Shown: piece by piece, positions 1,343 to 50,608 of the stretch
Layout: every line of letters starts with the position of its first letter
How positions within the stretch are numbered: position 1 is the stretch's first letter
Assembly (NCBI GenBank): GCA_029980465.1
Contig: JARYIJ010000001.1
Coordinates: 1,821,749-1,885,748, forward strand
Origin: Pseudolabrys sp.
Lineage (GTDB): Bacteria > Pseudomonadota > Alphaproteobacteria > Rhizobiales > Xanthobacteraceae
DNA length: 64,000 bases
Reading direction: 5' to 3'
Program-made: the position numbers and the translations under genes
The notes under the pieces: generated by a model
Databases searched by the model: none
Seen by the model: the letters and a program-made list of their open reading frames with translations, nothing else
Told to the model about the DNA's origin: nothing

Positions 1343-2864
<1,522 letters not shown>

Positions 2865-10364: not shown

Positions 10365-11197
10365 TGGCGCTGCGCATCATCACCGCCGATCAGCGGCTCG
10401 CCGAGGCGCATGCCAAGACCACGATGGCGATCTTCGGGCCCTCGGGTGTCGGCAAGACCTCGCTGCTTAAGACCCTGCCGCCGGCGGAGACGCTCTGCAT
10501 CGATCTCGAGGCCGGCATGAAGTCGGTCCAGGACTGGCCGGGCGACAGCATCCCGGTGCGCAGCTTCGGCGACGCGCTCGACGTCGGCTGCCTGATCGGC
10601 GGCGTCAATCCGGCGGCCGACGAGAAGACGTTCTTCTGCGAGAGCCACTACCGGCACCTGGTCGACACCTATCCCGACCTCGTCCGCATGATCGCGGGAA
10701 AGCGCATCATCTTCGTCGACTCGATCACCGACCTGACGCGGCTCGCCATGGTGTGGGCGAAGACCCGGCCCGAGGCGCAGTCGGAGCGGACTGGCAAACC
10801 CGATACCCGCGGCGCCTACGGTCTCCTGGCACGCGAAACCATCGGGCTCCTGAAGCACCTGCAGCACGCGCCCGGCCGCACCGTCATCTTCGTCGGCATC
10901 CTGGAGCGCATCACCGACGAGTTCAACCGCGTCACCTGGCAGCCGCAAATGGAAGGCGGCAAGGCCGCCCGCGAGCTCCCCGGCATCGTCGACCAGGTGA
11001 TCTCCATGAGCCGGTTCACGGCAGATGGCGACGCGTGGCGCCACGAGCCCGAGCGCGGCGACGTGCGCCGCTTCGTCTGCCAGGCCGCGAATCCGTTCGG
11101 CCTGCCGGGCAAGGATCGTTCCGGCCGCCTCGACCTCACCGAGCCGCCCGACCTGAGCGCGCTCATTCGCAAGATCAACCAGCCCAGCAAAGGATGA
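10364..11197 (+). CDS. Phage AAA_24 / Sak4-like RecA-fold ATPase
   Basis: 277 aa. Walker A is GPSGVGKTS and Walker B-like is IIFVDSITDL. Second copy at 57222-58052 on the minus strand. Confidence 0.8.
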   Translation: MALRIITADQRLAEAHAKTTMAIFGPSGVGKTSLLKTLPPAETLCIDLEAGMKSVQDWPGDSIPVRSFGDALDVGCLIGGVNPAADEKTFFCESHYRHLVDTYPDLVRMIAGKRIIFVDSITDLTRLAMVWAKTRPEAQSERTGKPDTRGAYGLLARETIGLLKHLQHAPGRTVIFVGILERITDEFNRVTWQPQMEGGKAARELPGIVDQVISMSRFTADGDAWRHEPERGDVRRFVCQAANPFGLPGKDRSGRLDLTEPPDLSALIRKINQPSKG

Positions 11198-11937
11198 CCA
11201 CCATGTTCGACATGAACGACGCCGAGCCGCAGAAGAGCGGTGAACTCATTCCCGATGGCACCTTCGCCAAGGTCACGATGAGCATCCGCCCCGGCGGGAT
11301 CGATGGCCAGAGCGAGATCGACCAGGCACTGCTCAAGGCGCCGAAGGACCCGTCGAGCGACGTACGCATGCTCGACTGCGAGTTCACGGTGGCGGAGGGA
11401 CCGCACGCCAAGCGCAAGTTCTGGCAGATGTTCACGGTGCAGGGCGGCAAGGTCGACGAGAACGGCGTGTCGATCGCCTGGAAAATTTCCAAGAGCACCT
11501 TCCGCGCCATGATCGACAGCGCGCTCGGGCTCGACCCGCAGGACATGAGCGAAGCGGCCAAGCAGAAACGCATCCTGCGCGGTCTTGCCGACCTCAACGG
11601 CATCACCTTCGTTGCCAAGATCAAGGTCGAGGCGAGCGAGGACGCCCGCTACAGCGATCAGAACCGCCTCGACCGCGTGGTGCTGCCGAACGAGAAGGAA
11701 TGGAAGCTCGTCATGGACGGCAAGGACGTGCCGGCGAGCCCGAGCCGTTCTCGCGGCGCCGGCAGCAAGGCCGCGGCCGCGCAACCCGCCTGGACGCAAG
11801 GCGCAGCCCCGGGCGGCCAGTCCCCGGCTGCGCAGCGTTCGACGCAGGCGCCCAGCGCGCCCGCCTGGTCGCAACCGTCACCTGCCGCCGGAGCGCCGGC
11901 GGCAAAGCAGTCGGGTCCGGCATGGCTCAACGGCTGA
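11194..11937 (+). CDS. DUF669-like phage protein (possible ssDNA-binding), Ala/Pro/Gln-rich tail
   Basis: 247 aa from MTTMFDMNDAEP. ATGA overlap with the ATPase gene. Typical partner position next to Sak4-like ATPases. The family call is from memory. Confidence 0.55.
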   Translation: MTTMFDMNDAEPQKSGELIPDGTFAKVTMSIRPGGIDGQSEIDQALLKAPKDPSSDVRMLDCEFTVAEGPHAKRKFWQMFTVQGGKVDENGVSIAWKISKSTFRAMIDSALGLDPQDMSEAAKQKRILRGLADLNGITFVAKIKVEASEDARYSDQNRLDRVVLPNEKEWKLVMDGKDVPASPSRSRGAGSKAAAAQPAWTQGAAPGGQSPAAQRSTQAPSAPAWSQPSPAAGAPAAKQSGPAWLNG

Positions 11938-12523: not shown

Positions 12524-13291
12524 ATGGACGTCGTCAATCTCAATCATGGCTCCGGATTTGTGTACGGCATCGGCGCGCGCGAGATGTCCGTTGCCCAGCG
12601 CGTCAACACGCTGATCGATGCCGCTCTATTGACAGCGCGGCGCGAGCAGCCCGAGCGCGATTACCTCGGGGCGTCGCGGCTGGGAGAGCCTTGCTGCCGC
12701 CGCCTCGCCTACGAAATCACCCACACGCCGCCGGATTATGGTCACGATCTCGACGGCGCCATGCTGCGGGTGTTCGAAGCCGGCCACCGGTTCGAGGCGT
12801 TGTCGATCGAATGGCTGCGCGCTGCGGGATTCGATCTGCGGACGCAGCGGCGCGACGGCAGCCAGTTCGGCTTTGCGGCGGCTGGCGGGCGGCTGCGCGG
12901 TCATATCGACGGCGTGATCCTTGCCGGCCCCGACATCGGCGTGCCCTGGCCGGCACTGTGGGAGCACAAGGCGCTCAACGCCAGGTCCTGGAACGACATC
13001 CTCAAGCGCGGCCTGCGCATCGCAAAGCCGCTCTATTTCGCGCAGGTCCAGATCTACATGGCCTACATGGAGATCGGCGTCACGCTGTTCAGCGCGCTGA
13101 ACAAGGACAGCCAGGCGCTCCACCACGAGCTGGTCTCCTTCGATCCCGCTGAAGCGCAGTCGCTCTCCGACAAGGCGGTCGACATCCTGCGCGCGGTCGA
13201 AACTTGCGAACTGCCGCCCCGCATCGCAGCCGCGTCCGACTTCTACCTCTGCCGACTGTGCCCGTTCGCCCGACGCTGCTGGGAGCAATGA
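12524..13291 (+). CDS. PD-(D/E)XK exonuclease, Cas4/RecB-like, with C-terminal Cys cluster
   Basis: Nuclease-like HIDGVI...WEHKAL motif and C-terminal CRLCPFARRC plus an N-terminal CC. ATG 12524 is preceded by GAGGG. Confidence 0.7.
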   Translation: MDVVNLNHGSGFVYGIGAREMSVAQRVNTLIDAALLTARREQPERDYLGASRLGEPCCRRLAYEITHTPPDYGHDLDGAMLRVFEAGHRFEALSIEWLRAAGFDLRTQRRDGSQFGFAAAGGRLRGHIDGVILAGPDIGVPWPALWEHKALNARSWNDILKRGLRIAKPLYFAQVQIYMAYMEIGVTLFSALNKDSQALHHELVSFDPAEAQSLSDKAVDILRAVETCELPPRIAAASDFYLCRLCPFARRCWEQ

Positions 13292-14580
13292 CCATGACAT
13301 TCACGCCGTCGGACATGCAAGCCAAGGCGATCAACGCGATCAAGGACTGGTTCACGAACCGCACCGCCGTGCAGCAGGTGTTCCGGGTGTTCGGCTATGC
13401 CGGCACCGGCAAGACCACCATCACCCGACACGCCATCGCCGAGCTCGGTCTCGAAACCGGCGCAAGCGACGGCGTCCACTACGCGGCCTTCACCGGCAAG
13501 GCGGCGCTGGTGATGACCCGCAAGGGGACGCCGGCCTCGACCATTCACTCGCTGATCTACCGCGTGTCGGAGGCGACGCCCGCGGAGATCGAGAAGGTCA
13601 AGGAGGAGATCGCCGATCTCAAGGCAAAAATCGCATCCATCGGTGCGGCCGAGCGCCTGTTCGCCGAGTCGCAACTTCGCTCGCTCGAATTGCGGCTGTC
13701 CGACATCCACAAGCCGCGTTTCGTGCTGAACGAGCAGTCCATGTTGCGCGAAGCCAAGCTGCTCGTGCTCGACGAGGTGTCGATGGTCGGCGACGACATG
13801 GCGCGCGATCTTCTCGCCTTCGGCAAGCCGATCCTGGTGCTGGGCGATCCCGGCCAGCTGCCGCCGGTCAGGGGCGAAGGCGCGTTCACGCAATGTCAGC
13901 CCGATGTGATGCTGACCGAGATTCATCGCCAGGCCGGCGAGAGTGCCATCATCCGATTGGCCACGCTCGCGCGCGAAAGCAAATCCATCCCCTACGGCGT
14001 GCACGACGAATTCGTCTGGAAGATGCGCAGGCTCGATGTGGCGCCCGAGCAGATGCTGCGCGGCGGCCAGGTGATCTGCGGCCGCAACGCCACGCGCCTG
14101 CAGCTCAACCTCGCCATGAAGCGGGCGTCCGGGTTCGAGGGCGTCTATCCGACCGGGCAAGGCGAAAAGATCATCTGCCTGAAGAACCGCAACGATCTTG
14201 GGCTGGTCAACGGCATGTTCCTCGACCTCACCGAGGTAAAGGACGAGGACGAGATTTCATTCACCGCCGTCGTTACCACGGAGGACGGACAGAAGATCGG
14301 CGGGACGAACGGAGCGCGCGAGCGCTTCCGCGTCTACAAGGGGTACTTCGACGACCACGTCACGCCCGATCCGGAGCGCGAGCGCCGTGATCACTGGAAG
14401 AAAAAGACTATCATCGAGGCGGTTTGGGGCTGGGCCATCACCTGTCACAAGGCTCAGGGCTCGCAGTGGGAGAACATCATCGTCTACGACGACGGCCTTG
14501 GCCGCACCGCCGAAGATCGTGCCCGCTGGCTCTACACCGCCATCACCCGCGCCGAGCGCGGTCTCGTGCTGCTCGATTGA
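13288..14580 (+). CDS. RecD-like (AAA_30/UvrD_C_2) DNA helicase
   Basis: 430 aa. Walker A is GYAGTGKTT, Walker B is LLVLDEVSMV, and the C-terminal motif is ITCHKAQGSQWENIIV. Confidence 0.85.
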   Translation: MTMTFTPSDMQAKAINAIKDWFTNRTAVQQVFRVFGYAGTGKTTITRHAIAELGLETGASDGVHYAAFTGKAALVMTRKGTPASTIHSLIYRVSEATPAEIEKVKEEIADLKAKIASIGAAERLFAESQLRSLELRLSDIHKPRFVLNEQSMLREAKLLVLDEVSMVGDDMARDLLAFGKPILVLGDPGQLPPVRGEGAFTQCQPDVMLTEIHRQAGESAIIRLATLARESKSIPYGVHDEFVWKMRRLDVAPEQMLRGGQVICGRNATRLQLNLAMKRASGFEGVYPTGQGEKIICLKNRNDLGLVNGMFLDLTEVKDEDEISFTAVVTTEDGQKIGGTNGARERFRVYKGYFDDHVTPDPERERRDHWKKKTIIEAVWGWAITCHKAQGSQWENIIVYDDGLGRTAEDRARWLYTAITRAERGLVLLD

Positions 14581-14587
14581 GGCGCCG

Positions 14588-17539
14588 ATGCTCGACCTCA
14601 ACGAAGCCGAACCTGCACGCCCGGCCGAGTGGTTTGACCTCGATGCAGTCGTCGCAAGATTGCGCGAGACCGCCGAGCACTGGGTGCCGCGACACTTCCC
14701 GAATGGCCGGCGGATAGGCGATGAATGGCGGCTTGCCAATATCCGGGGCGATGCGCCGCGCAAGAACGGCTCCTGCGTGATTGCACTCACCGGCGAGCAC
14801 GCCGGCGACTGGATCGATTTTGATGGCGGCGAGGGTGGCGGCCCCATCAACACGCTGGAGCACGCCATCCATCGCACCGGTCGCGAGCTGATAAGCTACG
14901 CGGCCGATCTGACCAGGACCGGCCCGCAGCCGAAACGAGGCGCAACCAAGCCATCGTCCAAGCAAGCCGACCAGGCCCGCGAGATTGACCATATCCTGTC
15001 GAAAGCAGTGCCGGTCGCCGGCACGCTGGGCGAACGCTATCTCGCATCGCGCCGGCTGGCGGCGCCGGATTGTACTGACCTTCTGTTCCACCCAGACCTG
15101 ACGCACTGGGAGAGCCGGCGCGGCTTTCCGGGCCTGGTCGCGGTGGTGCGTGACGGCAGCGGCACTCGCATCGCGCTCCACCGCACTTATCTCGCCGACG
15201 ACGGGGCCGCCAAAGCGCCGGTTGATAACCCGCGCAAGATGCTGGCCTCGGTCGCCGGCGGTGCTGTCCGCCTTGCCAATCTGACCGATGATCACGTCGT
15301 TGGGCTCGCCGAAGGCATCGAGACGGCGCTCTCGGTGATGGCGGCCAGTGCGCGCCTGCCGGTCTGGGCGACGCTATCGACGTCCAACCTGGAGCAGGTC
15401 GTTCTGCCCGTCCAAGCACGGAAGGTCGTGCTTCTGGCCGACCACGACCCCTCCAACGCCGGCGCGCGCGCCGCCGCGACCGCCGCCGCCCGCCTGCACG
15501 CCGAAGGCCGGCGCGTCTTCATCGCAATGCCACCCAAGGAGGGCGATGACTTCAACGATCTGCTGATGCGCGAGGGCGCCGATGCCGTGCGCAGGGTCGT
15601 CGAGTCGGCGGTCGAGTGGAGCGGCCAGGGCACCTCAGAAACCATGGCTCTCGTCGTTGACGGCGGCACGCACCGGCCAATCGGGCTGTCACTGCCCGAG
15701 CGCGCGCGACCGCAACTCCGCGCCGACAACGGTGATCTCGCCGGCGCGGTCTCGCAGGCCTGGCGCATCCTGCTTGCCGCCAACAATCCACCCTGGCTGT
15801 TCCGTGCCGCCGGATGCCCAACCTGGGTGGTGCGCGACGACGACGGCCTTCCCATGGCGAAGCCGCTCACGGAGGATCGCTTGCGGCCGGTGCTCGCCCA
15901 GCTCGTCGATTGGCGGAAGATCAATCGCAACGGCGAACTTATTCCCGCCCATCCACCATCGCCGGTGATCAAATCGATCCTCGCTACGCCCGATCCGGCA
16001 CTGCCGGTGCTCGCCGGCATCGTCACCACGCCGGTGTTCGGCCGCGACGGCGAACTCATTACCAAGCCGGGATACCATCCGGCGGCGCGCCTGCTTTATG
16101 ACCCGCCCAAGGATTTTGTGCTGCCAACGGTCGCCAAGCAGCCGACGCCGGCGGATATCGCTGCGGCGCGGTCATTGCTACTCGAAGATCTCCTGGGAGA
16201 GTTTCCGTTCACTGGCGAGGCCGAGCGCGCGCATGCACTCGCGCTGCTGCTCGTCGGCTTCGTGCGCACCATGATCGACGGGCCGACCCCGCTGCACTTG
16301 GTCGAAAAGCCCACGCAAGGCACCGGCGCGACCTTGATGGTGGACGCGGTTTCCGTGATCGCTACCGGCTGCCGCGCCAGCGTCATGGTCGAGGGCAGTG
16401 ACGACGAGGAATGGCGCAAGCGCCTGACCGCCAAGTTGCGCCAGATCCCGTCCGTCGTGCTGATCGACAATCTGCGCCGGCCGCTCGATTCCTCGGCGCT
16501 TGCGGCCGCGCTCACCGCGCCGTTCTGGGAAGACCGCATTTTGGGTATCTCGGAAACCACGCGGCTGCCGATCCGCTGCATCTGGATCGCCACCGGCAAC
16601 AATGCCGAGTTCTCAGGCGAAATGGCGCGCCGGCTGGTGCGCATCCGGCTCGATGCCCGTGTCGACCAGCCCTGGCGCCGCAACGGTTTCCGCCATCCCG
16701 ATCTTATCGCCTGGGTTCATGCCAACCGGGCAGACCTCGTGGCCGCCTGTCTGTCTCTTTGCCGCGGCTGGATCGCGGCCGGCATGCCACGCGGAGCCAA
16801 GCATATCGGCAGCTTCGAAGCCTGGGCCGCCGTCATGGGCGGCCTGCTCGAGGCGATCGGCGTTCCGGGCTTCCTCGGCAATATCGACGAGATGCTGGAA
16901 GCCTCTGACGGTGAGGGCGCGGTCTGGCGTGTGTTCGTCGGTCAATGGTGGGATCGCTTTGGCACCGCTGAAGTCGGCAGCAGCGGACTCTATGAACTCG
17001 CCATCACCTGCGAACCACCATTGCCGCTCGGCATGGGCGGCGAACGATCACAGCGCACGCGGCTCGGCAAGGCGCTCGTGCGCATGCGCGATCGTGTGTT
17101 CGACATCGCCGGCCTAAAGGCGCGCATCCGGGCGATCGGAGTGTCGCATCAGGCGCGCCGCTGGCAGCTCGTCCTCGAAGGGGAACCTGGGGAACGTGGG
17201 GAACGTTTTTCGCAAGCCGCCAAAGCTGAACAAGGGGAACGTCAGGCCGATTTGGAGCAACGTTCCCCTCGACGTTCCCCGACTTATCTTATTGATGGAC
17301 AAGGCATCGGGGAACATGGGGAACCTGGGGAACGTTTTTCTGACCTACGCGCATGCGCATCGAAGAACGACGAAAATAATATAAAAGAAGAGCAAGCACG
17401 TTCCCCACGTTCGCCACGTTCCCAAAATGGTGGCGGTTCAGACGCTTATACGGGGGAACGTGGCGGGGAACCTCGGAATGGACCTTCCCCACGTTCCCCG
17501 CTGACTGAATCTCCCAATTGGCTAAAGGGGGTGCCGTGA
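14588..17539 (+). CDS. Toprim-domain DNA primase fused to a large C-terminal (NTPase/helicase-like) region; replication initiator
   Basis: 983 aa from MLDLNEAEP. Toprim-like VVLLADHDPSNAGARAA...PPKEGDDFNDLL. The C-terminal low-complexity GER/GEP/RSP tract is encoded by the iteron array. Confidence 0.8.
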   Translation: MLDLNEAEPARPAEWFDLDAVVARLRETAEHWVPRHFPNGRRIGDEWRLANIRGDAPRKNGSCVIALTGEHAGDWIDFDGGEGGGPINTLEHAIHRTGRELISYAADLTRTGPQPKRGATKPSSKQADQAREIDHILSKAVPVAGTLGERYLASRRLAAPDCTDLLFHPDLTHWESRRGFPGLVAVVRDGSGTRIALHRTYLADDGAAKAPVDNPRKMLASVAGGAVRLANLTDDHVVGLAEGIETALSVMAASARLPVWATLSTSNLEQVVLPVQARKVVLLADHDPSNAGARAAATAAARLHAEGRRVFIAMPPKEGDDFNDLLMREGADAVRRVVESAVEWSGQGTSETMALVVDGGTHRPIGLSLPERARPQLRADNGDLAGAVSQAWRILLAANNPPWLFRAAGCPTWVVRDDDGLPMAKPLTEDRLRPVLAQLVDWRKINRNGELIPAHPPSPVIKSILATPDPALPVLAGIVTTPVFGRDGELITKPGYHPAARLLYDPPKDFVLPTVAKQPTPADIAAARSLLLEDLLGEFPFTGEAERAHALALLLVGFVRTMIDGPTPLHLVEKPTQGTGATLMVDAVSVIATGCRASVMVEGSDDEEWRKRLTAKLRQIPSVVLIDNLRRPLDSSALAAALTAPFWEDRILGISETTRLPIRCIWIATGNNAEFSGEMARRLVRIRLDARVDQPWRRNGFRHPDLIAWVHANRADLVAACLSLCRGWIAAGMPRGAKHIGSFEAWAAVMGGLLEAIGVPGFLGNIDEMLEASDGEGAVWRVFVGQWWDRFGTAEVGSSGLYELAITCEPPLPLGMGGERSQRTRLGKALVRMRDRVFDIAGLKARIRAIGVSHQARRWQLVLEGEPGERGERFSQAAKAEQGERQADLEQRSPRRSPTYLIDGQGIGEHGEPGERFSDLRACASKNDENNIKEEQARSPRSPRSQNGGGSDAYTGERGGEPRNGPSPRSPLTESPNWLKGVP
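17180..17499. repeat. Iteron array (16 copies of GGGGAAC[G/C/A]T or its complement) around an AT-rich core; putative replication origin
   Basis: Forward 9-mers at 17180, 17189, 17198, 17234, 17309, 17318, 17327, 17453 and 17465. Reverse 9-mers at 17260, 17272, 17398, 17407, 17416, 17482 and 17491. AT-rich stretch GAAAATAATATAAAAGAAGAG at 17372-17392. Confidence 0.7.
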
Positions 17540-17582
17540 TGCAGCGCACTCTCAATGCCAGATTGCTCCGCGGAGCCGCGCC

Positions 17583-17900
17583 ATGAGCCGGCAACGCCTT
17601 CCCGATCGCCGGCCCAGCCTCACGATCACCTTCGTGCACGACTGCCGGTCCTATTCGGTTACGTTCGGCTTCGACCCCGACAGCTGCCGCGTCGGCGAAG
17701 TGTTCACGCACGGCGCCAAGGTCGGCTCTGCCATGGATGGCATCCTCGACGATGCCTGCATCGCGCTGTCGCTCCTGCTGCAGCACGGCGTCGAACCGAA
17801 GGCACTCGCGGCGAGCATGGGGAGGCTCGGCGACGGCAAAACACCTGCCTCAATCATCGGCGCGCTTGCTGACCTCATCGCACGCGAGGCGCAGCCATGA
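17583..17900 (+). CDS. Conserved small phage-type hypothetical protein
   Basis: 105 aa. Homolog at 50652-50969. Confidence 0.6.
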   Translation: MSRQRLPDRRPSLTITFVHDCRSYSVTFGFDPDSCRVGEVFTHGAKVGSAMDGILDDACIALSLLLQHGVEPKALAASMGRLGDGKTPASIIGALADLIAREAQP

Positions 17901-18627: not shown

Positions 18628-18900
18628 CTAAACATCTAATTTTTTGACATCTGGTTCTGGTTTACCTGACCAAGTCATGCGGTAGATGGAGCCGGGAGCT
18701 ACAGACTGAACTGCATGGGGCCAAAGAGCCGCAAAGCAGGTGCCGCCCGAGTGACGCACGGACGGATAAATAATACCGTTTAGACCGCGACTACGAGCGG
18801 CTTCCGCCAGTGCGTTGCCTTCTGGGTAACCTACCGCTGGGTCTGGATGCAGGCACGGATGACTTGGATCAGCACGCCGTAAAGCCGAACCGAACCACAT
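18628..18900 (-). pseudogene. C-terminal fragment of a RES-domain toxin-like protein
   Basis: The 90-aa ORF contains GIIYPSVRHSGGTCFAALWP (Ser-containing RES-type block). The N-terminal two thirds are missing where the methylase gene begins. Confidence 0.5.
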
Positions 18901-20287
18901 GACGCCGCGACTGCCCGATGCGGTCGAGCACTGGCAGCTCGATCGTCTAATCCCCTATGCGCGCAACGCCCGGACTCACGACGACGATCAGGTGGCGCAG
19001 ATCGCGGCCTCGATCGTCGAATTCGGCTGGACCAATCCGATCCTGGTCGACGCGGAGGGCGGCATTGTTGCCGGCCACGGCCGGCTGCTGGCGGCACGCA
19101 GGCTTGGCCTCGACACCGTGCCGGTGGTCGTCCTTGACCATCTGACGCCAGCGCAGCGGCGCGCTTACGTCATCGCCGACAACAAGCTCGCACTCAACGC
19201 CGGCTGGAACGAGGAACTGCTCGCATCTGAACTGCATGCCCTCAACGGCGAGGGCTTCGACCTCGGACTCACCGGCTTCTCCGAGTCCGAGCTCGACGCA
19301 CTCATGGCGCCGCTTGGCGAGGAGACGGATGCCGCCGATAGTGACGGCGAGGACGCCGCTGATGAAATGCCGGAACCGCCGCGCGAGCCGGTCTCTCGTG
19401 CGGGCGATCTCTGGCTGATCGGGAACCATCGACTGCTTTGTGGCGACAGCACCGATTCCTCAGCGGTGGCGCGCGTCATGAATGGCGAGCGCGCGACGCT
19501 CGTCTTCACGTCGCCACCCTACGGCAACCAGCGCGATTACACGACCGGCGGTGTAGGCGATTGGGACGCGCTCATGCGCGGCGTGTTCGCGGTACTGCCG
19601 GTCGCAGACTCGGCGCAGGTCCTGGTCAATCTTGGACTGGTCCACCGCGACAACGAATGGCAGCCCTATTGGCAGGCTTGGCTCGACTGGATGCGCGAGC
19701 AGGGCTGGCGTCGCTTCGGGCTCTACGTCTGGGACCAGGGCCCGGGATTGCCGGGCGACTGGAACGGGCGCCTGGCACCGGCCTTCGAGCTCGTTTTCCA
19801 CTTCAATCGCAAGGCGCGCAAGCCGAGCAAGATTGTGCCCTGCAAGTGGGCCGGCCACGTCAACGACACGCATGGCGGCATCCGCCACAAGGATGGCCAC
19901 GTCGGCGAATGGACGCACGCCGGCCAGGGCGTCCAGGAAACGCGGATCCCCGACAACGTCATCCGCATCACGCGCCACAAGGCGCGCGGGATCGAGACGG
20001 AGCATCCCGCCGTCTTTCCGGTCGCGTTGCCGGAATTCGTGATGCGCGCCTACGGCAACGAGCGCGACATCATCTACGAGCCCTTTGCAGGCTCGGGCAC
20101 CAGCATCATCGCCGCGGAACGAACCGGCCGGCGCGCGCGGGCAATCGAACTCGCTCCCCAATATGTCGATGTCGCGCTTCGCCGGTGGCGCAAACTCTTT
20201 CCCGATCAGCCAGTGAAACTCGATGGCGAAGGCCAAACCTTCGAAGCGGTCGCGCGCGAACGCGGGGTCGCAATCCCCGACGACTGA
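18899..20287 (+). CDS. ParB-like N-terminal domain fused to a DNA methyltransferase (N6A/N4C type)
   Basis: 462 aa. ParB box is GGIVAGHGRLLAARRLG, catalytic motif is TSPPYGNQRDY, and the C-terminal SAM motif is YEPFAGSGTSIIAAERTGR. Confidence 0.85.
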   Translation: MTPRLPDAVEHWQLDRLIPYARNARTHDDDQVAQIAASIVEFGWTNPILVDAEGGIVAGHGRLLAARRLGLDTVPVVVLDHLTPAQRRAYVIADNKLALNAGWNEELLASELHALNGEGFDLGLTGFSESELDALMAPLGEETDAADSDGEDAADEMPEPPREPVSRAGDLWLIGNHRLLCGDSTDSSAVARVMNGERATLVFTSPPYGNQRDYTTGGVGDWDALMRGVFAVLPVADSAQVLVNLGLVHRDNEWQPYWQAWLDWMREQGWRRFGLYVWDQGPGLPGDWNGRLAPAFELVFHFNRKARKPSKIVPCKWAGHVNDTHGGIRHKDGHVGEWTHAGQGVQETRIPDNVIRITRHKARGIETEHPAVFPVALPEFVMRAYGNERDIIYEPFAGSGTSIIAAERTGRRARAIELAPQYVDVALRRWRKLFPDQPVKLDGEGQTFEAVARERGVAIPDD

Positions 20288-21440
20288 CACGCTGCAGGTC
20301 GAGCTCTGGCCGCTGGACCGGCTGTTGCCATATGCAGCGAACGCCAGGACCCATCCTGACGAGCAGGTCGCTCAGATTGCCGGCTCGATCGCTGAATTCG
20401 GCTTCAACGTGCCGTGTCTGGTTGACGACCGCGGCGTACTCATCGCCGGCCACGGCCGAATCGTCGCGGCGAAACGACTCGGCTTGCAGCAGGTCCCGGT
20501 CATCCGGCTCGGGCATCTGACTGATGCACAGGCGCGAGCCTTTCGGCTCGCCGACAATCGCATCGCGCTCAACGCCGGCTGGGATGATGAACTGCTCTCT
20601 GCCGAGCTGGAACGGCTCAAGGAGGATGGTGTCGATCTCGCCTTGCTCGGCTTTGCCGAGGACGATCTCGATCGACTGCTCGATGGACTCGACGCGGGTG
20701 GTGCATCCGAGGGAGAGGATGAAGTCCGCGAACCGCCAGCCCAGGCGGTCACCCGCCCGGGCGACCTTTGGCTCCTTGGATCGCATCGCCTGCTGTGCGG
20801 CGATGCGACGGTTGCCACCGATGTTTGCCGGCTGCTCCACGGCGCTAATCCGCATCTGATGGTGACCGACCCGCCTTACGGGGTCGAATACGATCCCAAC
20901 TGGCGAGTCGACTCCGGTGTTTCTTCGACCGCGCGGCCCGGCAAGGTCAACAACGACGACCGCGCCGACTGGCGCGAAGCCTGGAGCCTGTTTCCGGGCG
21001 AGGTCGCCTACGTATGGCACTCGGGGATTTACGCACGAATCGTTGCGGAAAGCCTCGACGCCTGCGGTTTTCTGATCAGGGCACAGATCGTATGGGCGAA
21101 GCCACGCCTGGTGCTCTCTCGCGGTGATTACCACTGGCAGCATGAACCGTGCTTCTACGCAGTGCGCAAAGGCGCGACCGGCCATTGGCAGGGCGCCCGC
21201 GACCAAACCACGTTGTGGACCATCGCCACCGGCGAGAGCGACGAGGCGACCGAGCACGGGACGCAAAAGCCGGTCGAGTGCATGCGCCGGCGACAACAAC
21301 GCGGTCTTTACCTCTCCGGACGCGATCAATTGGAGTCAGCGCACCGGGCCGACGACAGCCAAAAACTGGCGCAGCATCGTCTGGGCCGCCGGCGCCATCC
21401 AGAAGTTCTGCATGATTGCTGGCAACGCCAGCGGCAATAA
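20223..21440 (+). pseudogene. Second ParB-methyltransferase, 3'-truncated at ~21290 and reading out of frame into the tail-fibre remnant
   Basis: ParB box is LIAGHGRIVAAKRLG and the catalytic motif is VTDPPYGVEYD. The sequence stops making sense after HGTQKPVECMRR, and the expected C-terminal SAM-binding motif is absent. Confidence 0.7.
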
Positions 21441-24400: not shown

Positions 24401-25216
24401 ATGGCAGCCTGGACCTATGACGAGGCGCTGCGACGCTTGCTTGCGCACGAAGGCGGCTACACCAACCATCCGTCTGACCCGGGCGGGCCGACCAACTTCG
24501 GCATCACGATCGCGGACTACCGCAAATACGTGAAGCCGAACGCGACAGCGGCCGACGTGCGCGCCATGACGGTCGACGACGCGAAGACGATCTACCGCAA
24601 GCGGTATTGGGACGCGCAGCGCTGCGACGATCTGCCAGCCGGCGTCGATTACTCGGTGTTCGATTACGGCGTGAATAGCGGGATCGGCCGCAGCGGCAAG
24701 GTGCTGCGCCGCGTCATCGGGCTTCCAGACACGACGCATGTCGTCACTGACGAGGTGCTGCGCGCCGTCGCCAAGCGCGATCCGAAAGCCCTGGTCAGTG
24801 CGATCAATGACGAGCGCCTTGCCTTCCTCAAGCTCCTCAAAACCTGGCCGGTATTCGGCAAGGGCTGGCGCGCGCGCGTCGCTGCCGTCAAATCCGTCAG
24901 CCTGCGCATGGTGGCGCAACAGGCGCCGGCGCCCTCGGTCGTTCCCGATGCCGCACCCGTCCCCGGCAAGGGCGTCGTGCCCGCCCCCACAGCCGCAAAG
25001 AAGGTGATCATGGGTACTGGCACTGCGGCGCCGGTCGCCGCCGGCGGCGGATTCTGGGACTGGATCGCCGCCCACCCGTTCCAGACCGCGGCGCTCGGCT
25101 GCGGCGTCGTCCTGGTCGTCGGCGGTTCGGTTTACGCGCTCAACCGCTGGCACCAGCGCCGGCAGGAAGCCGCCATCCCCGAAGCGCCCGTCATCCCCGC
25201 ACTCGCCACCCCCTGA
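24401..25216 (+). CDS. Phage lysozyme, GH108 N-terminal domain + PG_binding_3, C-terminal TM anchor
   Basis: 271 aa. Contains HEGGYTNHPSDPGGPTNFGIT, WPVFGKGWRARV and a hydrophobic C-terminal segment. Copy at 54842-55657. Confidence 0.88.
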   Translation: MAAWTYDEALRRLLAHEGGYTNHPSDPGGPTNFGITIADYRKYVKPNATAADVRAMTVDDAKTIYRKRYWDAQRCDDLPAGVDYSVFDYGVNSGIGRSGKVLRRVIGLPDTTHVVTDEVLRAVAKRDPKALVSAINDERLAFLKLLKTWPVFGKGWRARVAAVKSVSLRMVAQQAPAPSVVPDAAPVPGKGVVPAPTAAKKVIMGTGTAAPVAAGGGFWDWIAAHPFQTAALGCGVVLVVGGSVYALNRWHQRRQEAAIPEAPVIPALATP

Positions 25217-47665: not shown

Positions 47666-50608
47666 ATGCTCGACCTCAACGACGCGCAACCTGTATGGCC
47701 GTTCGAGCGGTTTGACCTCGATGCCATCGTCTCGCGTCTGCGCGATAGCGCCGAGCAATGGGTTCCGCAACTGTTCCCGAACGGCCGGCGGGTCGGCGAT
47801 GAATGGCGGCTCGCCAATATTCAGGGCGCCGCGCCGCGCAAGAACGGCTCTTGCGTGATCGCGCTTGCCGGCGAGCATGCGGGCGACTGGATCGACTTCG
47901 ATGGTGGTGATGGCGGTGGACCGCTCAGCACATTGGAGAATGCAACGGGACTCAGCGGACGCGAGCTGTTCGCCTACGCGGCCGATCTGACGAAAACGGG
48001 CGCGCAGCCGAAACGGTCCGCCGCCAAGCCGTCGACCAAGCAGGCCGATCAGGCCCGTGAGATCGAACATATCCTCTCCAAGGCAGTGCCAATCGCGGGC
48101 ACCTTGGGCGAACGATATCTCGCTTCGCGTGGCCTACCGGCGTCCTACTGCTCCGACCTTCTGTTCCATTCCGACCTGACGCATTGGGAAAGCCGGCGTG
48201 GCTTTCCGGGCCTGGCAGCCGTGGTACGGGACGTTGCCGGGAACCGCATCGCGCTCCACCGCACCTATCTCGCCGACGACGGCACCGCCAAGGCGCCGGT
48301 CGATAACCCGCGAAAAATGCTGGCCTCGATCGCAGGCGGCGCCGTGCGTCTCGCCGACCTGACCAAAGATGGCGTCATCGGGCTCGCCGAAGGTATCGAG
48401 ACGGCGCTCTCGGTGATGGTGGCATGTGCGCGCCTGCCGGTCTGGGCAACACTCTCGGCCTCGAACCTGGAACAGGTGGCTCTGCCCACCGAGATGCGGA
48501 AGGTCGTGCTCCTTGCCGACCACGATCCCTCCGGCGCTGGTGCGCGCGCGGCCGAGACTGCTGCCGCCCGTCTGCACGCCGAGGGCCGGCGGGTCTTCAT
48601 CGCCATGCCGCCAAAGGAGGGCGACGACTTCAATGACCTGCTGCTGCGCGACGGCGTCGATGCCGTGCGCAGAATCGTTGAGGCGGCGGTCGAATGGGGC
48701 GCCCACAGCAACGACGACCGCGTGATCCTCGCCATCGACAGCGGCACGCACAAGCCGATCGGCTTCGGGCAGTCGGATCGCCCCCGACCGCAGTTGCGCG
48801 CCGACAATGGCGATCTGGCGCGCGCAGTGTCGCAGGCGTGGCAGATTCTGCTCGCCGCCAACGATCCGCCCTGGATGTTCCGTGCCGCCGGATGTCCGAC
48901 CTGGGTGGTGCGCGACGACGACGGCCTGCCCATGGCGAAGCCCCTGACCGAGGATCGCCTGCGTCCGGTGCTCGCCCAGCTCGCCGATTGGCGAAAGCTC
49001 TCCCGCAACGGCGATCTTATCCCGGCGCATCCGCCCTTGGCGGTGATCAAGTCGATCCTCGCCACACCCGATCCGGCGCTTCCCGTGCTGGCAGGCATCG
49101 TCACGACGCCTGTGTTCGGCCGCGAGGGCGAGCTCATCACCGAGCCCGGCTACCATCCGGCTGCGCGCCTGCTCTACGACCCGCCCAAGGGCTTCGTCCT
49201 GCCGCCGGTGCCGGCGAAGCCTACGCAATCCGACATCGTCGTTGCACGGTCTCTGCTGCTCGACGACCTATTGGGAGATTTCCCGTTCATCGGCGAAGCC
49301 GAGCGCGCGCATGCGCTTGCGCTCCTTCTCGTCGGCTTCGTGCGCGCCATGATCGATGGGCCGACCCCGCTGCATCTGGTCGAGAAACCGACCCAAGGCA
49401 CCGGCGCGACCCTGATGGTGGACGTGATGTCGGTCGTCGCGATCGGCTGCCGCGCGAGCGTCATGGTCGAGGGCAGCGACGACGAGGAATGGCGCAAGCG
49501 CCTGACCGCCAAGCTACGCCAGATCCCGTCCGTCGTCCTGATCGACAATCTTCGCCGACCGCTCGACTCCTCGGCGCTCGCTGCCGCGCTCACCGCGCCG
49601 TTTTGGGAAGACCGCATCCTCGGTGTCTCGGAAACGACACGGCTGCCCATTCGCTGCATCTGGATCGCCACCGGCAACAATGCCGAGTTCTCCGGCGAGA
49701 TGGCGCGCCGGCTCGTGCGCATCCGTCTCGACGCCCGCGTCGACCAGCCCTGGCGCCGCAATGGCTTCCGCCATCCCGATCTCATTGGCTGGGTTCATGC
49801 CAACCGGGCGGATCTTGTGGCCGCCTGTCTATCGCTCTGCCGCGGCTGGATCGCGGCCGGAATGCCACGCGGGAGCAAACACATCGGCAGCTTCGAAGCC
49901 TGGTCCGCCCTCATGGGCGGCCTGCTCGAGGCGATCGGAGTGCGAGGCTTCCTCGGCAACATCGACGAGATGCTCGAAGCCTCCGACGGCGAGGGCGCGG
50001 TCTGGCGCGTGTTCGTCGGTCAATGGTGGGATCGCTTCGGCACGGCAGAGGTTGGCACCAGCGGACTCTATGAGCTCGCCGTCAATTGCGAGCCTCCGCT
50101 GCCGCTCGGCACCGGCGGCGACCGATCCCAGCGCACCCGGCTCGGCAAAGCGCTCGTGCGCATGCGCGACCGGGTCTTCGACATCGCCGGACTGAAAGCG
50201 CGCATCCGGGCGATCGGGGTTTCCCATCAGGCGCGCCGCTGGCAGCTCACGCTCGAAGGGGAACATGGGGAACGTGGGGAACGTTTTTCGGAGTCGTCCG
50301 ATTTCGGGAAAGGGGAACGTCAGGCTGCTTTAGAGCAACGTTCCCCTCAACATTCCCCGGCCTATCCCATTGATGGACAAGGCGTCGGGGAACGTGGGGA
50401 ACCTGGGGAACGTTTTTCCGACCTACGCGCACGCGCGCGCGTACACAATAATAAAGAAGAGCAAACACGTTCCCCACGTTCGTCACGTTCCCAAAACGGT
50501 GTTGGTTCAGACGCTTACGACGGGGAACATGGCGGGGAACGTCATAACGCACGTTCCCCACGTTCCCCGCTGAATGAATCGCCCGATTGGCTGAAGGGGG
50601 TGCCGTGA
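47666..50608 (+). CDS. Toprim primase / replication initiator, copy 2
   Basis: 980 aa, colinear with 14588-17539. Roughly 85-90% identical by eye. Confidence 0.8.
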   Translation: MLDLNDAQPVWPFERFDLDAIVSRLRDSAEQWVPQLFPNGRRVGDEWRLANIQGAAPRKNGSCVIALAGEHAGDWIDFDGGDGGGPLSTLENATGLSGRELFAYAADLTKTGAQPKRSAAKPSTKQADQAREIEHILSKAVPIAGTLGERYLASRGLPASYCSDLLFHSDLTHWESRRGFPGLAAVVRDVAGNRIALHRTYLADDGTAKAPVDNPRKMLASIAGGAVRLADLTKDGVIGLAEGIETALSVMVACARLPVWATLSASNLEQVALPTEMRKVVLLADHDPSGAGARAAETAAARLHAEGRRVFIAMPPKEGDDFNDLLLRDGVDAVRRIVEAAVEWGAHSNDDRVILAIDSGTHKPIGFGQSDRPRPQLRADNGDLARAVSQAWQILLAANDPPWMFRAAGCPTWVVRDDDGLPMAKPLTEDRLRPVLAQLADWRKLSRNGDLIPAHPPLAVIKSILATPDPALPVLAGIVTTPVFGREGELITEPGYHPAARLLYDPPKGFVLPPVPAKPTQSDIVVARSLLLDDLLGDFPFIGEAERAHALALLLVGFVRAMIDGPTPLHLVEKPTQGTGATLMVDVMSVVAIGCRASVMVEGSDDEEWRKRLTAKLRQIPSVVLIDNLRRPLDSSALAAALTAPFWEDRILGVSETTRLPIRCIWIATGNNAEFSGEMARRLVRIRLDARVDQPWRRNGFRHPDLIGWVHANRADLVAACLSLCRGWIAAGMPRGSKHIGSFEAWSALMGGLLEAIGVRGFLGNIDEMLEASDGEGAVWRVFVGQWWDRFGTAEVGTSGLYELAVNCEPPLPLGTGGDRSQRTRLGKALVRMRDRVFDIAGLKARIRAIGVSHQARRWQLTLEGEHGERGERFSESSDFGKGERQAALEQRSPQHSPAYPIDGQGVGERGEPGERFSDLRARARVHNNKEEQTRSPRSSRSQNGVGSDAYDGEHGGERHNARSPRSPLNESPDWLKGVP
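50258..50569. repeat. Iteron array, copy 2 (GGGGAAC[G/A/C]T units around an AT-rich core at ~50445-50462)
   Basis: Same unit, same block order and same orientation pattern as 17180-17499. Confidence 0.7.

What the first reader, a model, noticed from the sequence alone, without database searches (positions are those of the whole stretch)
17180..17499. Replication-origin-like iteron array embedded in the primase coding sequence, conserved in both copies
Sixteen 9-mers (GGGGAAC[G/C/A]T or its complement) lie in 320 bp. They form blocks of 3 forward, 1 forward, 2 reverse and 3 forward, then an AT-rich 21-mer (17372-17392), then 3 reverse, 2 forward and 2 reverse. This is the classic iterons-plus-AT-rich-unwinding-element layout of theta origins that sit inside their initiator gene, as in lambda O and P4 alpha. 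The array is in frame and dictates a GER/GEP/RSP low-complexity linker in the protein. Copy 2 (50258-50569) keeps the same block order even though the flanking coding sequence has diverged, which argues for selection on the DNA sites themselves.
Basis: partly seen in the sequence, partly recalled or inferred. Interest (0 to 1): 0.65.

Follow-up and report, generated by a model that had tools for sequence, protein, structure and literature searches.

The report
Prophage replication origin inside primase gene
The last 360 bases of a prophage primase-helicase gene are a conserved array of 9-base binding sites, most likely read by the protein's own DNA-binding domain, so this is almost certainly the phage's replication origin written inside its initiator gene; the kind is known, but this family is undescribed and shows a readable protein-DNA recognition code.

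Summary
GGGGAAC occurs 26 times in the 64-kb window.

The iteron reading is strongly supported by comparison. In 137 related loci the 3' end of this gene always carries 7-17 copies of one word in both orientations. The layout is constant, but the word differs between lineages (about 25 variants).

Three word positions co-vary almost one-to-one with three residues of the protein's own winged-helix domain:
- position 7 with T825
- position 3 with H855
- position 6 with R821

Other evidence that the constraint is on DNA:
- Rare-codon use in the array.
- Site cores 97% identical between the two copies, against 74% for spacers.
- A disordered predicted tail.
- Clades where half or all of the array lies after the stop codon.
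- A plasmid relative whose array is fully intergenic.

The protein combines a DnaG-type primase, an SF3-helicase-like domain and a winged helix, the phage P4 alpha architecture.

- The AT-rich 21-mer is specific to this clade.
- The universal central element is a perfectly alternating purine-pyrimidine tract (17346-17360).
- The array encodes a C-terminal tail, not a linker.

Replication itself is inferred, not shown. Verdict: an undescribed variant of a known kind.

The parts
14585..17539 (+). Gene for the 984-aa replication protein. It has a DnaG-type primase (DUF7146 + Toprim_3, residues about 20-340), an SF3-helicase-like domain (about 380-790), a winged helix (799-864) and a disordered tail (866-984).
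   Evidence: Pfam. AF2 model, pLDDT 73. Foldseek: 2au3 at E 4e-10; PriRep1 7pds, poxvirus D5/E5 and ASFV C962R. 592 homologs.
16979..17176 (+). Coding region of the winged-helix domain (residues 799-864), inferred to be the iteron reader. R821 and T825 lie at the start of helix 3. H855 and Q856 lie at the wing tip.
   Evidence: Domain model, pLDDT 93. Co-variation with iteron positions 6, 7 and 3.
17180..17211 (+). Outer-left block: three tandem forward 9-mers (GGGGAACCT, GGGGAACGT, GGGGAACGT) followed by a T-run.
17234..17280 (.). One forward site (17234-42) and two reverse sites 12 bp apart (17260-68, 17272-80).
17309..17340 (+). Inner-left arm: three tandem forward 9-mers pointing at the centre, followed by TTTTTC.
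   Evidence: It is the left arm of a 26-nt inverted repeat with 17398-17423, 88% complementary with 62 nt between the arms. The block is present in all 23 word classes.
17346..17360 (.). Perfectly alternating purine-pyrimidine tract, TACGCGCATGCGCAT. This is the element of the centre that is conserved family-wide.
   Evidence: A run of at least 12 nt is present in 128 of 129 loci at the same place, with a median of 18 nt and a maximum of 36. The background mean is 8.5, and the run exceeds the locus maximum in 97% of loci.
17372..17392 (.). AT-rich 21-mer. It is specific to this clade and is a possible local unwinding element.
17398..17424 (-). Inner-right arm: three tandem reverse 9-mers pointing at the centre (one exact, two with one mismatch).
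17453..17499 (.). Two forward sites 12 bp apart (17453-61, 17465-73), then two reverse sites (17482-90, 17491-99).
17523..17586 (+). AAGGGGG Shine-Dalgarno-like sequence inside the last codons, then the primase stop overlapping an ATG (GTGCCGTGATG), a 15-codon ORF, and an ATGA overlap with the TSCPD gene. This explains the conserved C-terminal WLKxVP peptide.
   Evidence: read directly from the sequence.
47666..50608 (+). Second copy of the gene, in a decayed prophage remnant. It is an intact 980-aa ORF with the same specificity residues (R821, T825, H855).
50258..50568 (.). Second copy of the array, with the same block order. Its alternating Pu/Py tract is 50424-50447 (24 nt).

Best explanation
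The 320-bp array is the cis-acting origin of replication of a temperate phage of Alphaproteobacteria. It is written into the 3' end of the gene for the phage's own initiator.

**Initiator.** It is a single polypeptide with a DnaG-type primase, an SF3-helicase-like domain and a C-terminal winged helix.

**Proposed mechanism**
1. The winged helix binds the 9-bp word (here GGGGAACGT; position 8 is free). The start of its recognition helix (R821, T825) reads positions 6-7, and the tip of its beta-hairpin wing (H855, Q856) reads position 3.
2. Two tandem triplets of sites, 9 bp apart, point at each other across a 62-bp spacer. This would assemble two oppositely oriented oligomers. Accessory sites lie on both sides.
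3. The spacer holds a T-run, an alternating purine-pyrimidine tract prone to Z-DNA or cruciform formation and, in this clade only, an A+T-rich stretch. DNA is opened there and primed by the N-terminal primase.
4. Transcription and translation of the gene run through the origin, so the protein is made next to its site.

**The encoded tail.** The roughly 120 residues encoded by the array form a disordered passenger tail whose sequence is dictated by the DNA sites.

**What is shown and what is inferred**
- Shown: the sites, their selection at the DNA level, the conserved layout, and the co-variation with the winged helix.
- Inferred: binding, oligomer geometry, the place of melting, and replication itself.
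For: **1. Enrichment.** 26 matches against 1.2 expected, all inside the two arrays.

**2. Selection acts on DNA.**
- The tail uses GGG for 10 of 17 Gly codons, against 4 of 76 in the body. It uses CGT for 11 of 14 Arg codons, against 5 of 81 (p 2e-6 and 2e-8).
- Between the two copies, site cores are identical at 109 of 112 positions and spacers at 165 of 222 (p 2e-8).
- Across 40 distinct tails of the same-word clade, cores are 87% conserved and spacers 56%. Third codon positions of the enzyme body are 58% conserved.

**3. Family-wide pattern.**
- All 137 loci with a complete tail carry one 7-mer 3-17 times (7-17 in full-length tails) in about 350 nt. It occurs in both orientations in all but one truncated tail, and mostly 0-2 times in the other about 7.5 kb of the locus.
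- There are about 25 different register-aligned words of the form N-G-[GT]-G-[AG]-[AGT]-[CTG]-N-T.
- The layout is the same throughout: 3F, T-run, Pu/Py tract, 3R, 2F, 1-2R.
- Forward and reverse copies always change together, although they encode unrelated peptides (GER and RSP, GEC and HSP, GEG and PSQ).

In 52 representatives:
- Position 7: C goes with T825 (33 of 33), T with I825 (10 of 10), and G with V, T or A.
- Position 3: G goes with H855 (29 of 29) and T with Q or R (22 of 23).
- Position 6: A goes with R821 (32 of 35) and G never goes with R (17 of 17).
- These columns score 6.4-8.5 SD above the mean of about 860 columns.
- On a tree built without the winged helix, 10 of 14, 10 of 11 and 9 of 12 word changes fall on the same branch as the residue change (P 1e-8 to 9e-7).
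- At site level, T825 proteins have 839 C and 20 T, I825 have 153 T and 36 C, and V825 have 53 G.
- Neighbouring proteins reach only 0.32-0.68 of the word entropy, against 0.78-0.88 for H855, R821 and T825 and up to 0.96 for the best wing column.
- The residues sit at the start of helix 3 and at the wing tip of a pLDDT-93 winged-helix model.

**5. Translation of the array is dispensable.**
- The tail is predicted disordered, with pLDDT about 30.
- In the Bauldia clade (three sources) the ORF stops at the centre and the right half is non-coding. In L119 the core lies after the stop.
- In plasmid pMt-1 a relative with a PriCT-2 primase module is the only replication-type gene listed. It has three 9-bp-phased sites in each orientation, fully intergenic, 20 nt after its stop.

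**6. Context.** The gene sits in a phage replication module (Cas4-like nuclease, RecD-like helicase, this gene). The element has a serine integrase, a repressor and a terminase, and 48 IMG/VR viral contigs carry it.

**7. Precedent.**
- Ori lambda lies inside O (PMC7466680).
- oriV lies inside repC, and N15 RepA acts in cis (PMC3155836).
- P4 alpha combines primase, SF3 helicase and winged helix (PMC2777425).
- PICI origins are two iteron sets flanking a melting region next to pri-rep (PMC6092414).
Against: - No experiment shows binding or replication; everything is comparative.
- The SF3-like module lacks the Walker A lysine (EKPTQGTGATL, invariant) and has DN instead of DE/DD in Walker B. 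It may not be an active helicase. The adjacent RecD-like helicase may do the unwinding, which weakens the double-hexamer picture.
- The centre conserved across the family is G+C-rich alternating Pu/Py, which is hard to melt as B-DNA. The A+T-rich stretch expected of a classical unwinding element is not conserved.
- No DnaA or CtrA boxes are present.
- The winged helix and the array are less than 100 nt apart. Joint transfer by recombination could therefore contribute to co-variation on the same branch.
- Foldseek gives no significant match for the winged-helix model. The best hit has E 0.2, although the top hits are winged-helix DNA binders.
Confidence: 0.75

Rival explanations
1. The array is bound by the initiator's winged helix, but its main role is not initiation. 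It could be a copy-control, handcuffing or enhancer site like P4 crr or P1 incA. It could be an autoregulatory roadblock that limits read-through into the downstream genes. It could be a partition or packaging site. The true origin would then lie elsewhere.
For: - Iteron arrays with these roles exist in other replicons (established knowledge).
- The centre lacks a conserved A+T-rich unwinding element.
- The SF3-like module may be ATPase-deficient.
- The array lies in the path of transcription into TSCPD and DUF6362.
Against: - The word occurs nowhere else in the window and only 0-2 times in the flanks of most related loci. No second site exists that could be the real origin for this protein.
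- In plasmid pMt-1 the parA locus is 6 kb away from the array, which argues against a centromere role.
- The phage integrates through a serine recombinase, so it does not need partition.
- Convergent triplets around a structured spacer are typical of origins.
Confidence: 0.15
2. This is the classical lambda-type mechanism the first reader proposed. Iterons load the initiator, and the strands open at the AT-rich 21-mer (17372-17392), which is the functional unwinding element. The alternating Pu/Py tract is incidental.
For: - The 21-mer is among the 0.05% most AT-rich 21-nt windows of the sequence.
- It lies between the convergent triplets.
- It is shared by the nearest clades (W1, W2, L044, L078, L081, L149).
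Against: - It is absent from most of the family. The tail's lowest-GC 20-mer is below the locus background in only 50% of loci, and its position varies.
- Copy 2 has already shortened it by 9 nt.
- The Pu/Py tract is present at the same position in 128 of 129 loci.
Confidence: 0.3
3. The repeats are a protein feature: a low-complexity or collagen-like (Gly-X-Y) and RSP-rich C-terminal tail selected at the peptide level, with the DNA repeat as a by-product.
For: - GEPGERGER resembles Gly-X-Y triplets.
- The frame is kept open through the array in most lineages, and indels are multiples of three.
Against: - Forward and reverse words encode unrelated peptides, yet they change in concert in about 25 lineages.
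- The repeats use rare codons with no synonymous variation.
- Spacers drift like synonymous sites.
- The tail is predicted disordered.
- Half or all of the array is untranslated in some relatives.
Confidence: 0.02

Closest known systems
Bacteriophage lambda ori inside gene O (lambdoid O-some origin)
   Same: - The iterons bound by the initiator lie inside the initiator's own coding sequence and dictate part of its peptide. In Stx phages, extra iterons add residues to O (PMC7466680).
- Transcription runs through the origin.
- The element is a temperate phage.
   Different: - Lambda has four 19-bp direct iterons in the middle of O, next to an A+T-rich region. O is only an origin binder and recruits host DnaB through P.
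- Here there are sixteen 9-bp sites in both orientations, with dyad symmetry, at the extreme 3' end.
- The centre is an alternating Pu/Py tract.
- The initiator itself carries primase and helicase-like modules.
- There is no sequence relationship.
Phage P4 alpha protein with its type I iterons (ori and crr)
   Same: - One polypeptide combines a DnaG-type primase, an SF3 helicase and a C-terminal winged-helix origin-binding domain (PMC2777425).
- The iterons are short (8-9 bp).
   Different: - No detectable sequence similarity: phmmer against all PDB chains, which include the P4 alpha winged helix 1ka8, found nothing.
- Foldseek did not retrieve 1ka8.
- The Walker A lysine is missing here.
- P4 has two separate cis sites, which by my recollection lie outside alpha. 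This family has a single array, inside the gene.
SaPI/PICI Pri-Rep origins and the pRN1 ORF904 origin
   Same: - The origin is placed immediately 3' of the primase/helicase gene.
- It has two sets of iterons flanking a presumed melting region (PMC6092414).
- The region downstream of orf904 is essential for pRN1 replication (PMC2777425, PMC4234260).
- The helicase-like half of the model resembles PriRep1 (7pds).
   Different: - Those origins are intergenic and A+T-rich in the centre.
- Here the ORF has run through the origin. The intergenic state survives in the pMt-1 plasmid relative, and partly in the Bauldia clade.
repABC plasmids (oriV inside repC) and N15 repA
   Same: - The origin lies inside the initiator gene.
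- The initiator acts preferentially or only in cis (PMC3155836).
- repABC replicons are alphaproteobacterial.
   Different: - repC has a large A+T-rich region and no iteron array of this kind.
- The proteins are unrelated.
Herpes simplex virus oriS (from memory, not checked here)
   Same: Inverted binding sites for an origin-binding helicase flank a central alternating purine-pyrimidine tract.
   Different: - The HSV tract is (AT)n and easily melted, whereas here it is (CG/CA)n.
- The system is eukaryotic and viral, and the proteins are unrelated.

Membership tests
Iteron-type origin located inside its initiator gene (lambda O type) | Several copies of a short word clustered far above chance | tested here: met
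   26 matches against 1.2 expected, all in the two arrays. In related loci with a full-length tail, 7-17 copies lie in about 350 nt against mostly 0-2 in about 7.5 kb.
Iteron-type origin located inside its initiator gene (lambda O type) | The word is the binding site of the initiator encoded by the same gene | tested here: inconclusive
   Binding was not measured. There is strong indirect support: word positions 3, 6 and 7 co-vary with residues H855, R821 and T825 of the gene's own winged helix. The pattern survives a tree-based test and neighbour-protein controls.
Iteron-type origin located inside its initiator gene (lambda O type) | The sites lie within the initiator ORF and are translated | tested here: met
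   All 16 sites lie inside the ORF 14585-17539, in fixed codon phase. This is true of most but not all relatives.
Iteron-type origin located inside its initiator gene (lambda O type) | An adjacent A+T-rich DNA-unwinding element | tested here: inconclusive
   It is present in the window (17372-17392) but not conserved in the family. The conserved central element is a G+C-rich alternating Pu/Py tract.
Iteron-type origin located inside its initiator gene (lambda O type) | The fragment supports initiator-dependent replication | not testable with these tools
   This needs cloning into a suicide vector, or marker-frequency analysis after induction.
P4 alpha-type primase-helicase initiators | N-terminal DnaG/Toprim-type primase | tested here: met
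   DUF7146 (2.5e-29) and Toprim_3 (3.6e-22). Foldseek matches Aquifex DnaG 2au3 at E 4e-10, and T7 gp4 and T4 primases.
P4 alpha-type primase-helicase initiators | Central SF3 helicase with Walker A GxxxxGK[ST] and Walker B motifs | tested here: inconclusive
   The fold resembles SF3 helicases (7pds, D5/E5, ASFV C962R; E 2e-4 to 3e-3). However, the P-loop is an invariant GTGAT without lysine, and Walker B is DN.
P4 alpha-type primase-helicase initiators | C-terminal winged-helix origin-binding domain | tested here: inconclusive
   The model has pLDDT 93 and H1-S1-H2-H3-wing topology. Foldseek's top hits are winged-helix DNA binders (RctB, FOXN1, MecI, PadR), but none is significant (best E 0.2) and 1ka8 was not retrieved.
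P4 alpha-type primase-helicase initiators | Detectable sequence homology to P4 alpha | tested here: not met
   phmmer of the whole protein against all PDB chain sequences found 0 hits at E <= 1. The PHROG hits are to other primase families.
SaPI/PICI-type Pri-Rep origins | Two oppositely placed iteron sets flanking a central melting region next to the rep gene | tested here: met
   Convergent triplets 17309-35 and 17398-17424 are 62 nt apart. The arrangement is intergenic in the pMt-1 relative.

The most novel reading that the evidence does not exclude
In this phage family the place of a classical A+T-rich unwinding element is taken by a perfectly alternating, G+C-rich purine-pyrimidine tract of 12-36 nt. 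This tract undergoes a supercoil-driven B-to-Z or cruciform transition between two converging initiator assemblies, and that transition, rather than simple AT melting, nucleates origin opening. Separately, the roughly 25 natural word and residue pairs would form a modular, transferable recognition code (T/I/V825 for C/T/G at position 7, H/Q855 for G/T at position 3, R/Q-H821 for A/G at position 6). That code sets replication-incompatibility groups among co-resident prophages.
Probability: 0.3. Interest if true: 0.8.

Novelty: new variant of a known kind. Interest (0 to 1): 0.6.

Why it matters
- **Annotation.** It identifies the likely origin and origin-binding domain of a widespread, uncultured family of alphaproteobacterial temperate phages. 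The gene occurs in hundreds of genomes and viral contigs and is annotated only as 'toprim domain protein'.
- **Natural recognition code.** The family offers about 25 matched initiator and iteron specificities with near one-to-one residue-to-base rules. These can be tested directly by point swaps. They could also supply orthogonal origin-initiator pairs for Alphaproteobacteria.
- **Dual coding.** A functional DNA element dictates about 120 residues of disordered protein. Relatives capture stages from intergenic, through half-translated, to fully translated.
- **Origin opening.** The conserved alternating purine-pyrimidine centre raises a concrete question about how a G+C-rich origin is opened.

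Tried and rejected
- **DNA-level searches.** Searches of 16600-17900 against the plasmid and phage collections found no match. The family has no close cultured representative.
- **Protein against phages and plasmids.** tblastn found no record covering at least 80% of the protein. The best hits cover only one part of it, either the central domain or the N-terminal Toprim region.
- **Exact look-up.** The copy-2 protein is not on record. P0008 was used for context instead.
- **PDB sequence search.** Nothing found.
- **RNA explanation.** Rfam over the whole window gave no hit, so an RNA-gene explanation was dropped.
- **Promoters and terminators.** The scan of 16800-17900 found none. There is no sign of a promoter or terminator function.
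- **Host-factor boxes.** There are no DnaA-box (two mismatches or fewer) or CtrA-box matches in the array.
- **IHF.** The consensus site is about 140-fold enriched in tails, at two fixed positions, but in only 9 of 92 tails and not in the window. I treat it as a lineage-specific accessory, not a defining part.
- **AT-rich element as a conserved feature.** Rejected on family data.
- **Fold search of the isolated winged helix.** No significant match, so homology to the P4 alpha domain is left open.
- **First registration heuristic.** Anchoring words on the T-run captured only 93 loci. It was replaced by a frame-based registration.
- **TSCPD co-variation control.** Only 9 representatives had the protein, so it is uninformative.


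Full report
**1. The observation**

- GGGGAACNT matches 26 times in the 64-kb window against 1.17 expected. The largest of 100 dinucleotide-preserving shuffles gave 4.
- Every match lies in 17180-17499 or 50258-50568. The 7-mer core occurs nowhere else.
- With one mismatch allowed in the core, copy 1 has 16 sites, 13 exact and 3 degenerate.
- The order is 3 forward, 1 forward, 2 reverse, 3 forward, 3 reverse, 2 forward, 2 reverse. The three triplets are head-to-tail with a 9-bp period.
- The inner forward triplet (17309-35) and the reverse triplet (17398-17424) form a 26-nt inverted repeat, 88% complementary, with 62 nt between the arms.
- The 21-mer 17372-17392 has 4 G+C. It ranks among the 35 most AT-rich of 63,980 windows.
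- Forward sites always start at codon position 1 (GGG GAA CNT). Reverse sites always sit one base out of that register (N CGT TCC CC).

**2. The gene and the element**

*The gene.*
- The array is the 3' end of a 984-codon gene, 14585-17539. Its second copy is 47666-50608.
- Pfam finds DUF7146 and Toprim_3 in the first 340 residues and nothing after them.
- An AlphaFold2 model (pLDDT 73) compared with the PDB gives DnaG-type primases for the N-terminal part (2au3, E 4e-10).
- The same comparison gives SF3 helicases for the second half: PriRep1 7pds, poxvirus D5/E5 and ASFV C962R.
- Residues 799-864 fold as helix, strand, helix, helix and a three-stranded wing. A separate model of this part has pLDDT 93.
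- Residues 868-984, exactly the part encoded by the array, have pLDDT about 30.

*The element.*
- A near-identical gene on a 59-kb metagenomic contig sits in a temperate-phage genome. That genome has a large serine recombinase, an HTH repressor, AAA_24, a Cas4-like nuclease, a RecD-like helicase, this gene, TSCPD, DUF6362, ParB-methylase and a GpA terminase.
- The window has the same module.
- 48 IMG/VR viral contigs of 5-48 kb carry the gene.
- No cultured phage or plasmid record covers the whole protein.
- Copy 2 is part of a decayed remnant (47126-51557 plus 54805-56444) next to a mercury-resistance operon.
- Copy 1's element also lacks the head and tail genes between the methylase and the lysis genes.

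**3. Protein repeat or DNA site**

Four independent tests point to DNA.
- *Codon use.* In the tail, 10 of 17 Gly codons are GGG and 11 of 14 Arg codons are CGT. In the body of the same gene the figures are 4 of 76 and 5 of 81 (p 2e-6 and 2e-8). Copy 2 behaves the same way.
- *Conservation between copies.* Site cores are identical at 109 of 112 positions and spacers at 165 of 222 (p 2e-8).
- *Conservation within the clade.* In 40 distinct tails that share the word, core positions are 87% conserved, position 8 is 61% and spacers are 56%. Third codon positions of the upstream enzyme body are 58% conserved. The spacers therefore drift like synonymous sites, and amino-acid identity falls in the tail while third-position identity rises.
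- *Comparison across the family.* This is the decisive test.
  - Two scans of 185,579 species genomes and one of IMG/VR gave 137 loci with a complete tail.
  - Each carries one 7-mer 3-17 times (7-17 in full-length tails). It occurs in both orientations in all but one truncated tail, and mostly 0-2 times in the remaining about 7.5 kb.
  - The word differs between lineages. Examples are GGGGAACGT, GGGGAATGT, GGGGAGTGT, GGTGAACGT, GGTGAATGT, CGTGAGGGT, GGGGAGGTT, GGGGAACCT, TGGGGACCT, TGTGAACCT, TGTGAGCCT and TGGGGGCCT.
  - In all there are about 25 words, fitting N-G-[GT]-G-[AG]-[AGT]-[CTG]-N-T.
  - The forward and reverse copies encode unrelated peptides (GER and RSP, GEC and HSP, GEG and PSQ), yet they change together.
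  - The layout is the same for 23 words: three forward sites, a T-run, a central tract, three reverse sites, about 30 nt, two forward sites 12 bp apart, then one or two reverse sites.
It came out the opposite way.

**4. Translation of the array is dispensable**
- In a Bauldia clade (three independent sources) the ORF stops at the centre of the array. The right half continues as non-coding DNA.
- In L119 the core lies after the stop.
- On the 47-kb Methylobacterium plasmid pMt-1, a relative with a different primase module (PriCT-2) ends at 20450. It shares the same helicase-like half (tblastn match over residues 375-840).
- Three 9-bp-phased AGGGGTTT-type sites (20470-95) and three reverse ones (20605-30) lie entirely between its stop and the next gene. 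All three exact copies on the plasmid are there.
- That plasmid lists a ParA but no other replication gene. PLSDB tables are incomplete, so this is not proof of absence.
- The conserved C-terminal peptide WLKxVP coincides with a Shine-Dalgarno-like sequence and the ATG of the next ORF (GTGCCGTGATG). DNA constraints may therefore explain it too.

**5. Which protein reads the sites**

I aligned 119 proteins and reduced them to 52 representatives. I then measured the association between each variable word position and each of about 860 protein columns.
- The top columns all lie in the winged helix and stand 6.4-8.5 SD above the mean.
- Position 7: C goes with T825 (33 of 33), T with I825 (10 of 10), and G with V, T or A.
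- Position 3: G goes with H855 (29 of 29) and T with Q or R (22 of 23).
- Position 6: A goes with R821 (32 of 35) and G never goes with R (17 of 17).
- In the model, R821 and T825 are the second and sixth residues of helix 3. H855 and Q856 are at the tip of the wing. These are the classical DNA-contacting elements of winged helices (PMC2777425 for the general rule).
- On a neighbour-joining tree built from residues 1-790 only, parsimony places 10 of 14, 10 of 11 and 9 of 12 word changes on the same branch as the residue change (P 1e-8, 5e-10 and 9e-7).
- Counted by site, T825 proteins have 839 C and 20 T at position 7, I825 have 153 T and 36 C, V825 have 53 G and 1 C, and A825 have 24 G and 1 T.
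- Five I825 loci closest to the window (L038, L040, L063, L065, L079) have arrays that are about half C and half T. They look like a specificity switch in progress.
- The 66-aa protein, DUF6362 and the RecD-like helicase reach only 0.32-0.68 of the word entropy. The key winged-helix residues reach 0.78-0.88, and the best wing column reaches 0.96.
- Caveat: the winged helix and the array are adjacent, so joint recombination contributes to shared-branch changes. The one-residue-to-one-base pattern recurs on different word backgrounds, and linkage alone does not easily explain that.

**6. The centre**
- The AT-rich 21-mer is specific to this clade. Across 129 loci, the lowest-GC 20-mer of the tail is below the locus background in only 50%, and its position varies.
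- Every locus but one has a perfectly alternating purine-pyrimidine run of at least 12 nt (median 18, maximum 36). It lies at the same place, about 10 nt after the T-run that follows the inner forward triplet.
- The mean longest run in equal-sized background segments is 8.5. The tail's run exceeds the locus maximum in 97% of loci.
- In the window it is TACGCGCATGCGCAT (17346-17360). In copy 2 it is TACGCGCACGCGCGCGCGTACACA (50424-50447).
- The sequence varies and the length changes in steps of 6, but the alternation is kept.
- By established knowledge, such (CG/CA)n tracts adopt Z-DNA or extrude hairpins under negative supercoiling. Whether that happens here is untested.
- As a single strand, 17300-17430 folds through the two triplets (-26.9 kcal/mol, z -4.5). 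That follows from the inverted repeat.

**7. Mechanism proposed**

The protein's winged helix binds the 9-bp sites. The two converging triplets assemble opposed oligomers around a 62-bp spacer that is prone to a structural transition. The spacer opens, and the primase domain starts synthesis.

Two points keep this partly open.
- The SF3-like module has an invariant P-loop without lysine (EKPTQGTGATL) and DN in Walker B.
- An SF1 RecD-like helicase gene abuts the primase gene.

The helicase that works at this origin is therefore uncertain. Replication itself is inferred.

**8. Comparison with known systems**
- An origin inside the initiator gene is known for lambda O, where extra iterons add 13 residues to O (PMC7466680). 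It is also known for repC of repABC plasmids, and N15 RepA acts only in cis (PMC3155836).
- The architecture of primase, SF3 helicase and winged helix is that of P4 alpha and pRN1 ORF904 (PMC2777425).
- Two iteron sets flanking a melting region next to pri-rep is the SaPI/PICI design (PMC6092414).
- This family combines all three. It differs in four respects:
  - the extreme 3' position with a translated disordered tail;
  - the dyad-symmetric layout with 9-bp phasing;
  - the G+C-rich alternating centre;
  - the breadth of co-evolved specificities.
- It shows no sequence similarity to any solved structure. Homology of its winged helix to P4 alpha's could not be shown.
- The paper searches I ran for iteron origins in primase genes and in alphaproteobacterial prophages turned up no description of this family.

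**9. Verdict**
It is wrong or incomplete on the conserved central element, on 'linker', and probably on the location of the P4 origin.
- It is an undescribed variant of a well-known kind. Its interest lies mainly in the readable recognition code and the unusual centre.

Noticed in passing
window 16295-16480 (residues 571-632 of the 14585-17539 product): The SF3-helicase-like module has a family-invariant P-loop, EKPTQGTGATL, with no Walker A lysine, and VLIDN instead of DE/DD in Walker B. It may be a pseudo-ATPase or use K575. An SF1 RecD-like helicase gene (13291-14580) ends 4 nt before this gene.
   Followed up: partly
window 17523-17586 and 50592-50655: The primase stop overlaps an ATG (GTGCCGTGATG), preceded by AAGGGGG. 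A 15-codon ORF (MQRTLNARLLRGAAP in copy 1, MPRALDANLLRGGAP in copy 2) ends in ATGA, overlapping the start of the TSCPD gene. This looks like a translational-coupling relay, and it explains the conserved C-terminal WLKxVP peptide.
   Followed up: partly
window 47126-51557, 54805-56444 and 51592-53700: Copy 2 is a prophage remnant: the RecD-like helicase is truncated to 171 aa while the primase ORF and the array are intact. It sits next to a merR-merT-merP-merA operon. It has the same word and the same R821, T825 and H855 residues as copy 1, so the initiator of one element could act on the other's array and over-replicate the neighbouring mer genes in situ.
   Followed up: no
window 4453-26400: Copy 1's element has a serine recombinase (4453-5895, minus strand), the replication module, a ParB-methylase, a 924-aa protein with F5/8 type C domains (21124-23898) and a GH108 lysozyme (24401-25216). 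It has no terminase, capsid or tail genes, which lie after the methylases in the full phage (L027). It is therefore a defective prophage or a satellite-like derivative.
   Followed up: partly
window 45313-45681 and 58907-59275; 10365-11344 and 57075-58054: A 369-bp inverted repeat, 99.7% identical, brackets the copy-2 and mer region, which suggests a composite transposon or IS ends. A 980-bp inverted duplicate (91%) of the AAA_24 gene region of copy 1 lies at 57075-58054.
   Followed up: no
loci L038, L040, L063, L065, L079 (= L002), tails: These are close relatives of the window's gene that carry I825 instead of T825. Their arrays mix GGGGAACGT and GGGGAATGT about half and half, apparently a specificity switch caught midway.
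   Followed up: partly
L157 (plasmid pMt-1, NZ_CP097485.1) 20450-20653: A relative with a PriCT-2 primase module and the same helicase-like half has the 3-forward, centre, 3-reverse array with 9-bp phasing (word AGGGGTTT) wholly intergenic, just after its stop. This is the probable ancestral arrangement.
   Followed up: yes
tails of L093, L091, L110, L146, L148, L151, L152, L097, L134: Perfect IHF consensus sites (WATCAANNNNTTR) occur at two fixed positions, 61 nt before and about 78 nt after the start of the Pu/Py tract. The rate is 0.28 per kb against 0.002 per kb in the flanks. The window has only weak matches at these positions.
   Followed up: partly
window 1332-2864 (minus strand): A type I restriction-modification HsdM methylase gene (N6_Mtase and HsdM_N) lies next to the prophage integration end.
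   Followed up: no
window 17507-17511 and 50576-50580: A GANTC (CcrM-type methylation) site lies in the last part of the tail and is conserved between the two copies. The element encodes its own ParB-fused N6/N4 methylase (18899-20287).
   Followed up: no
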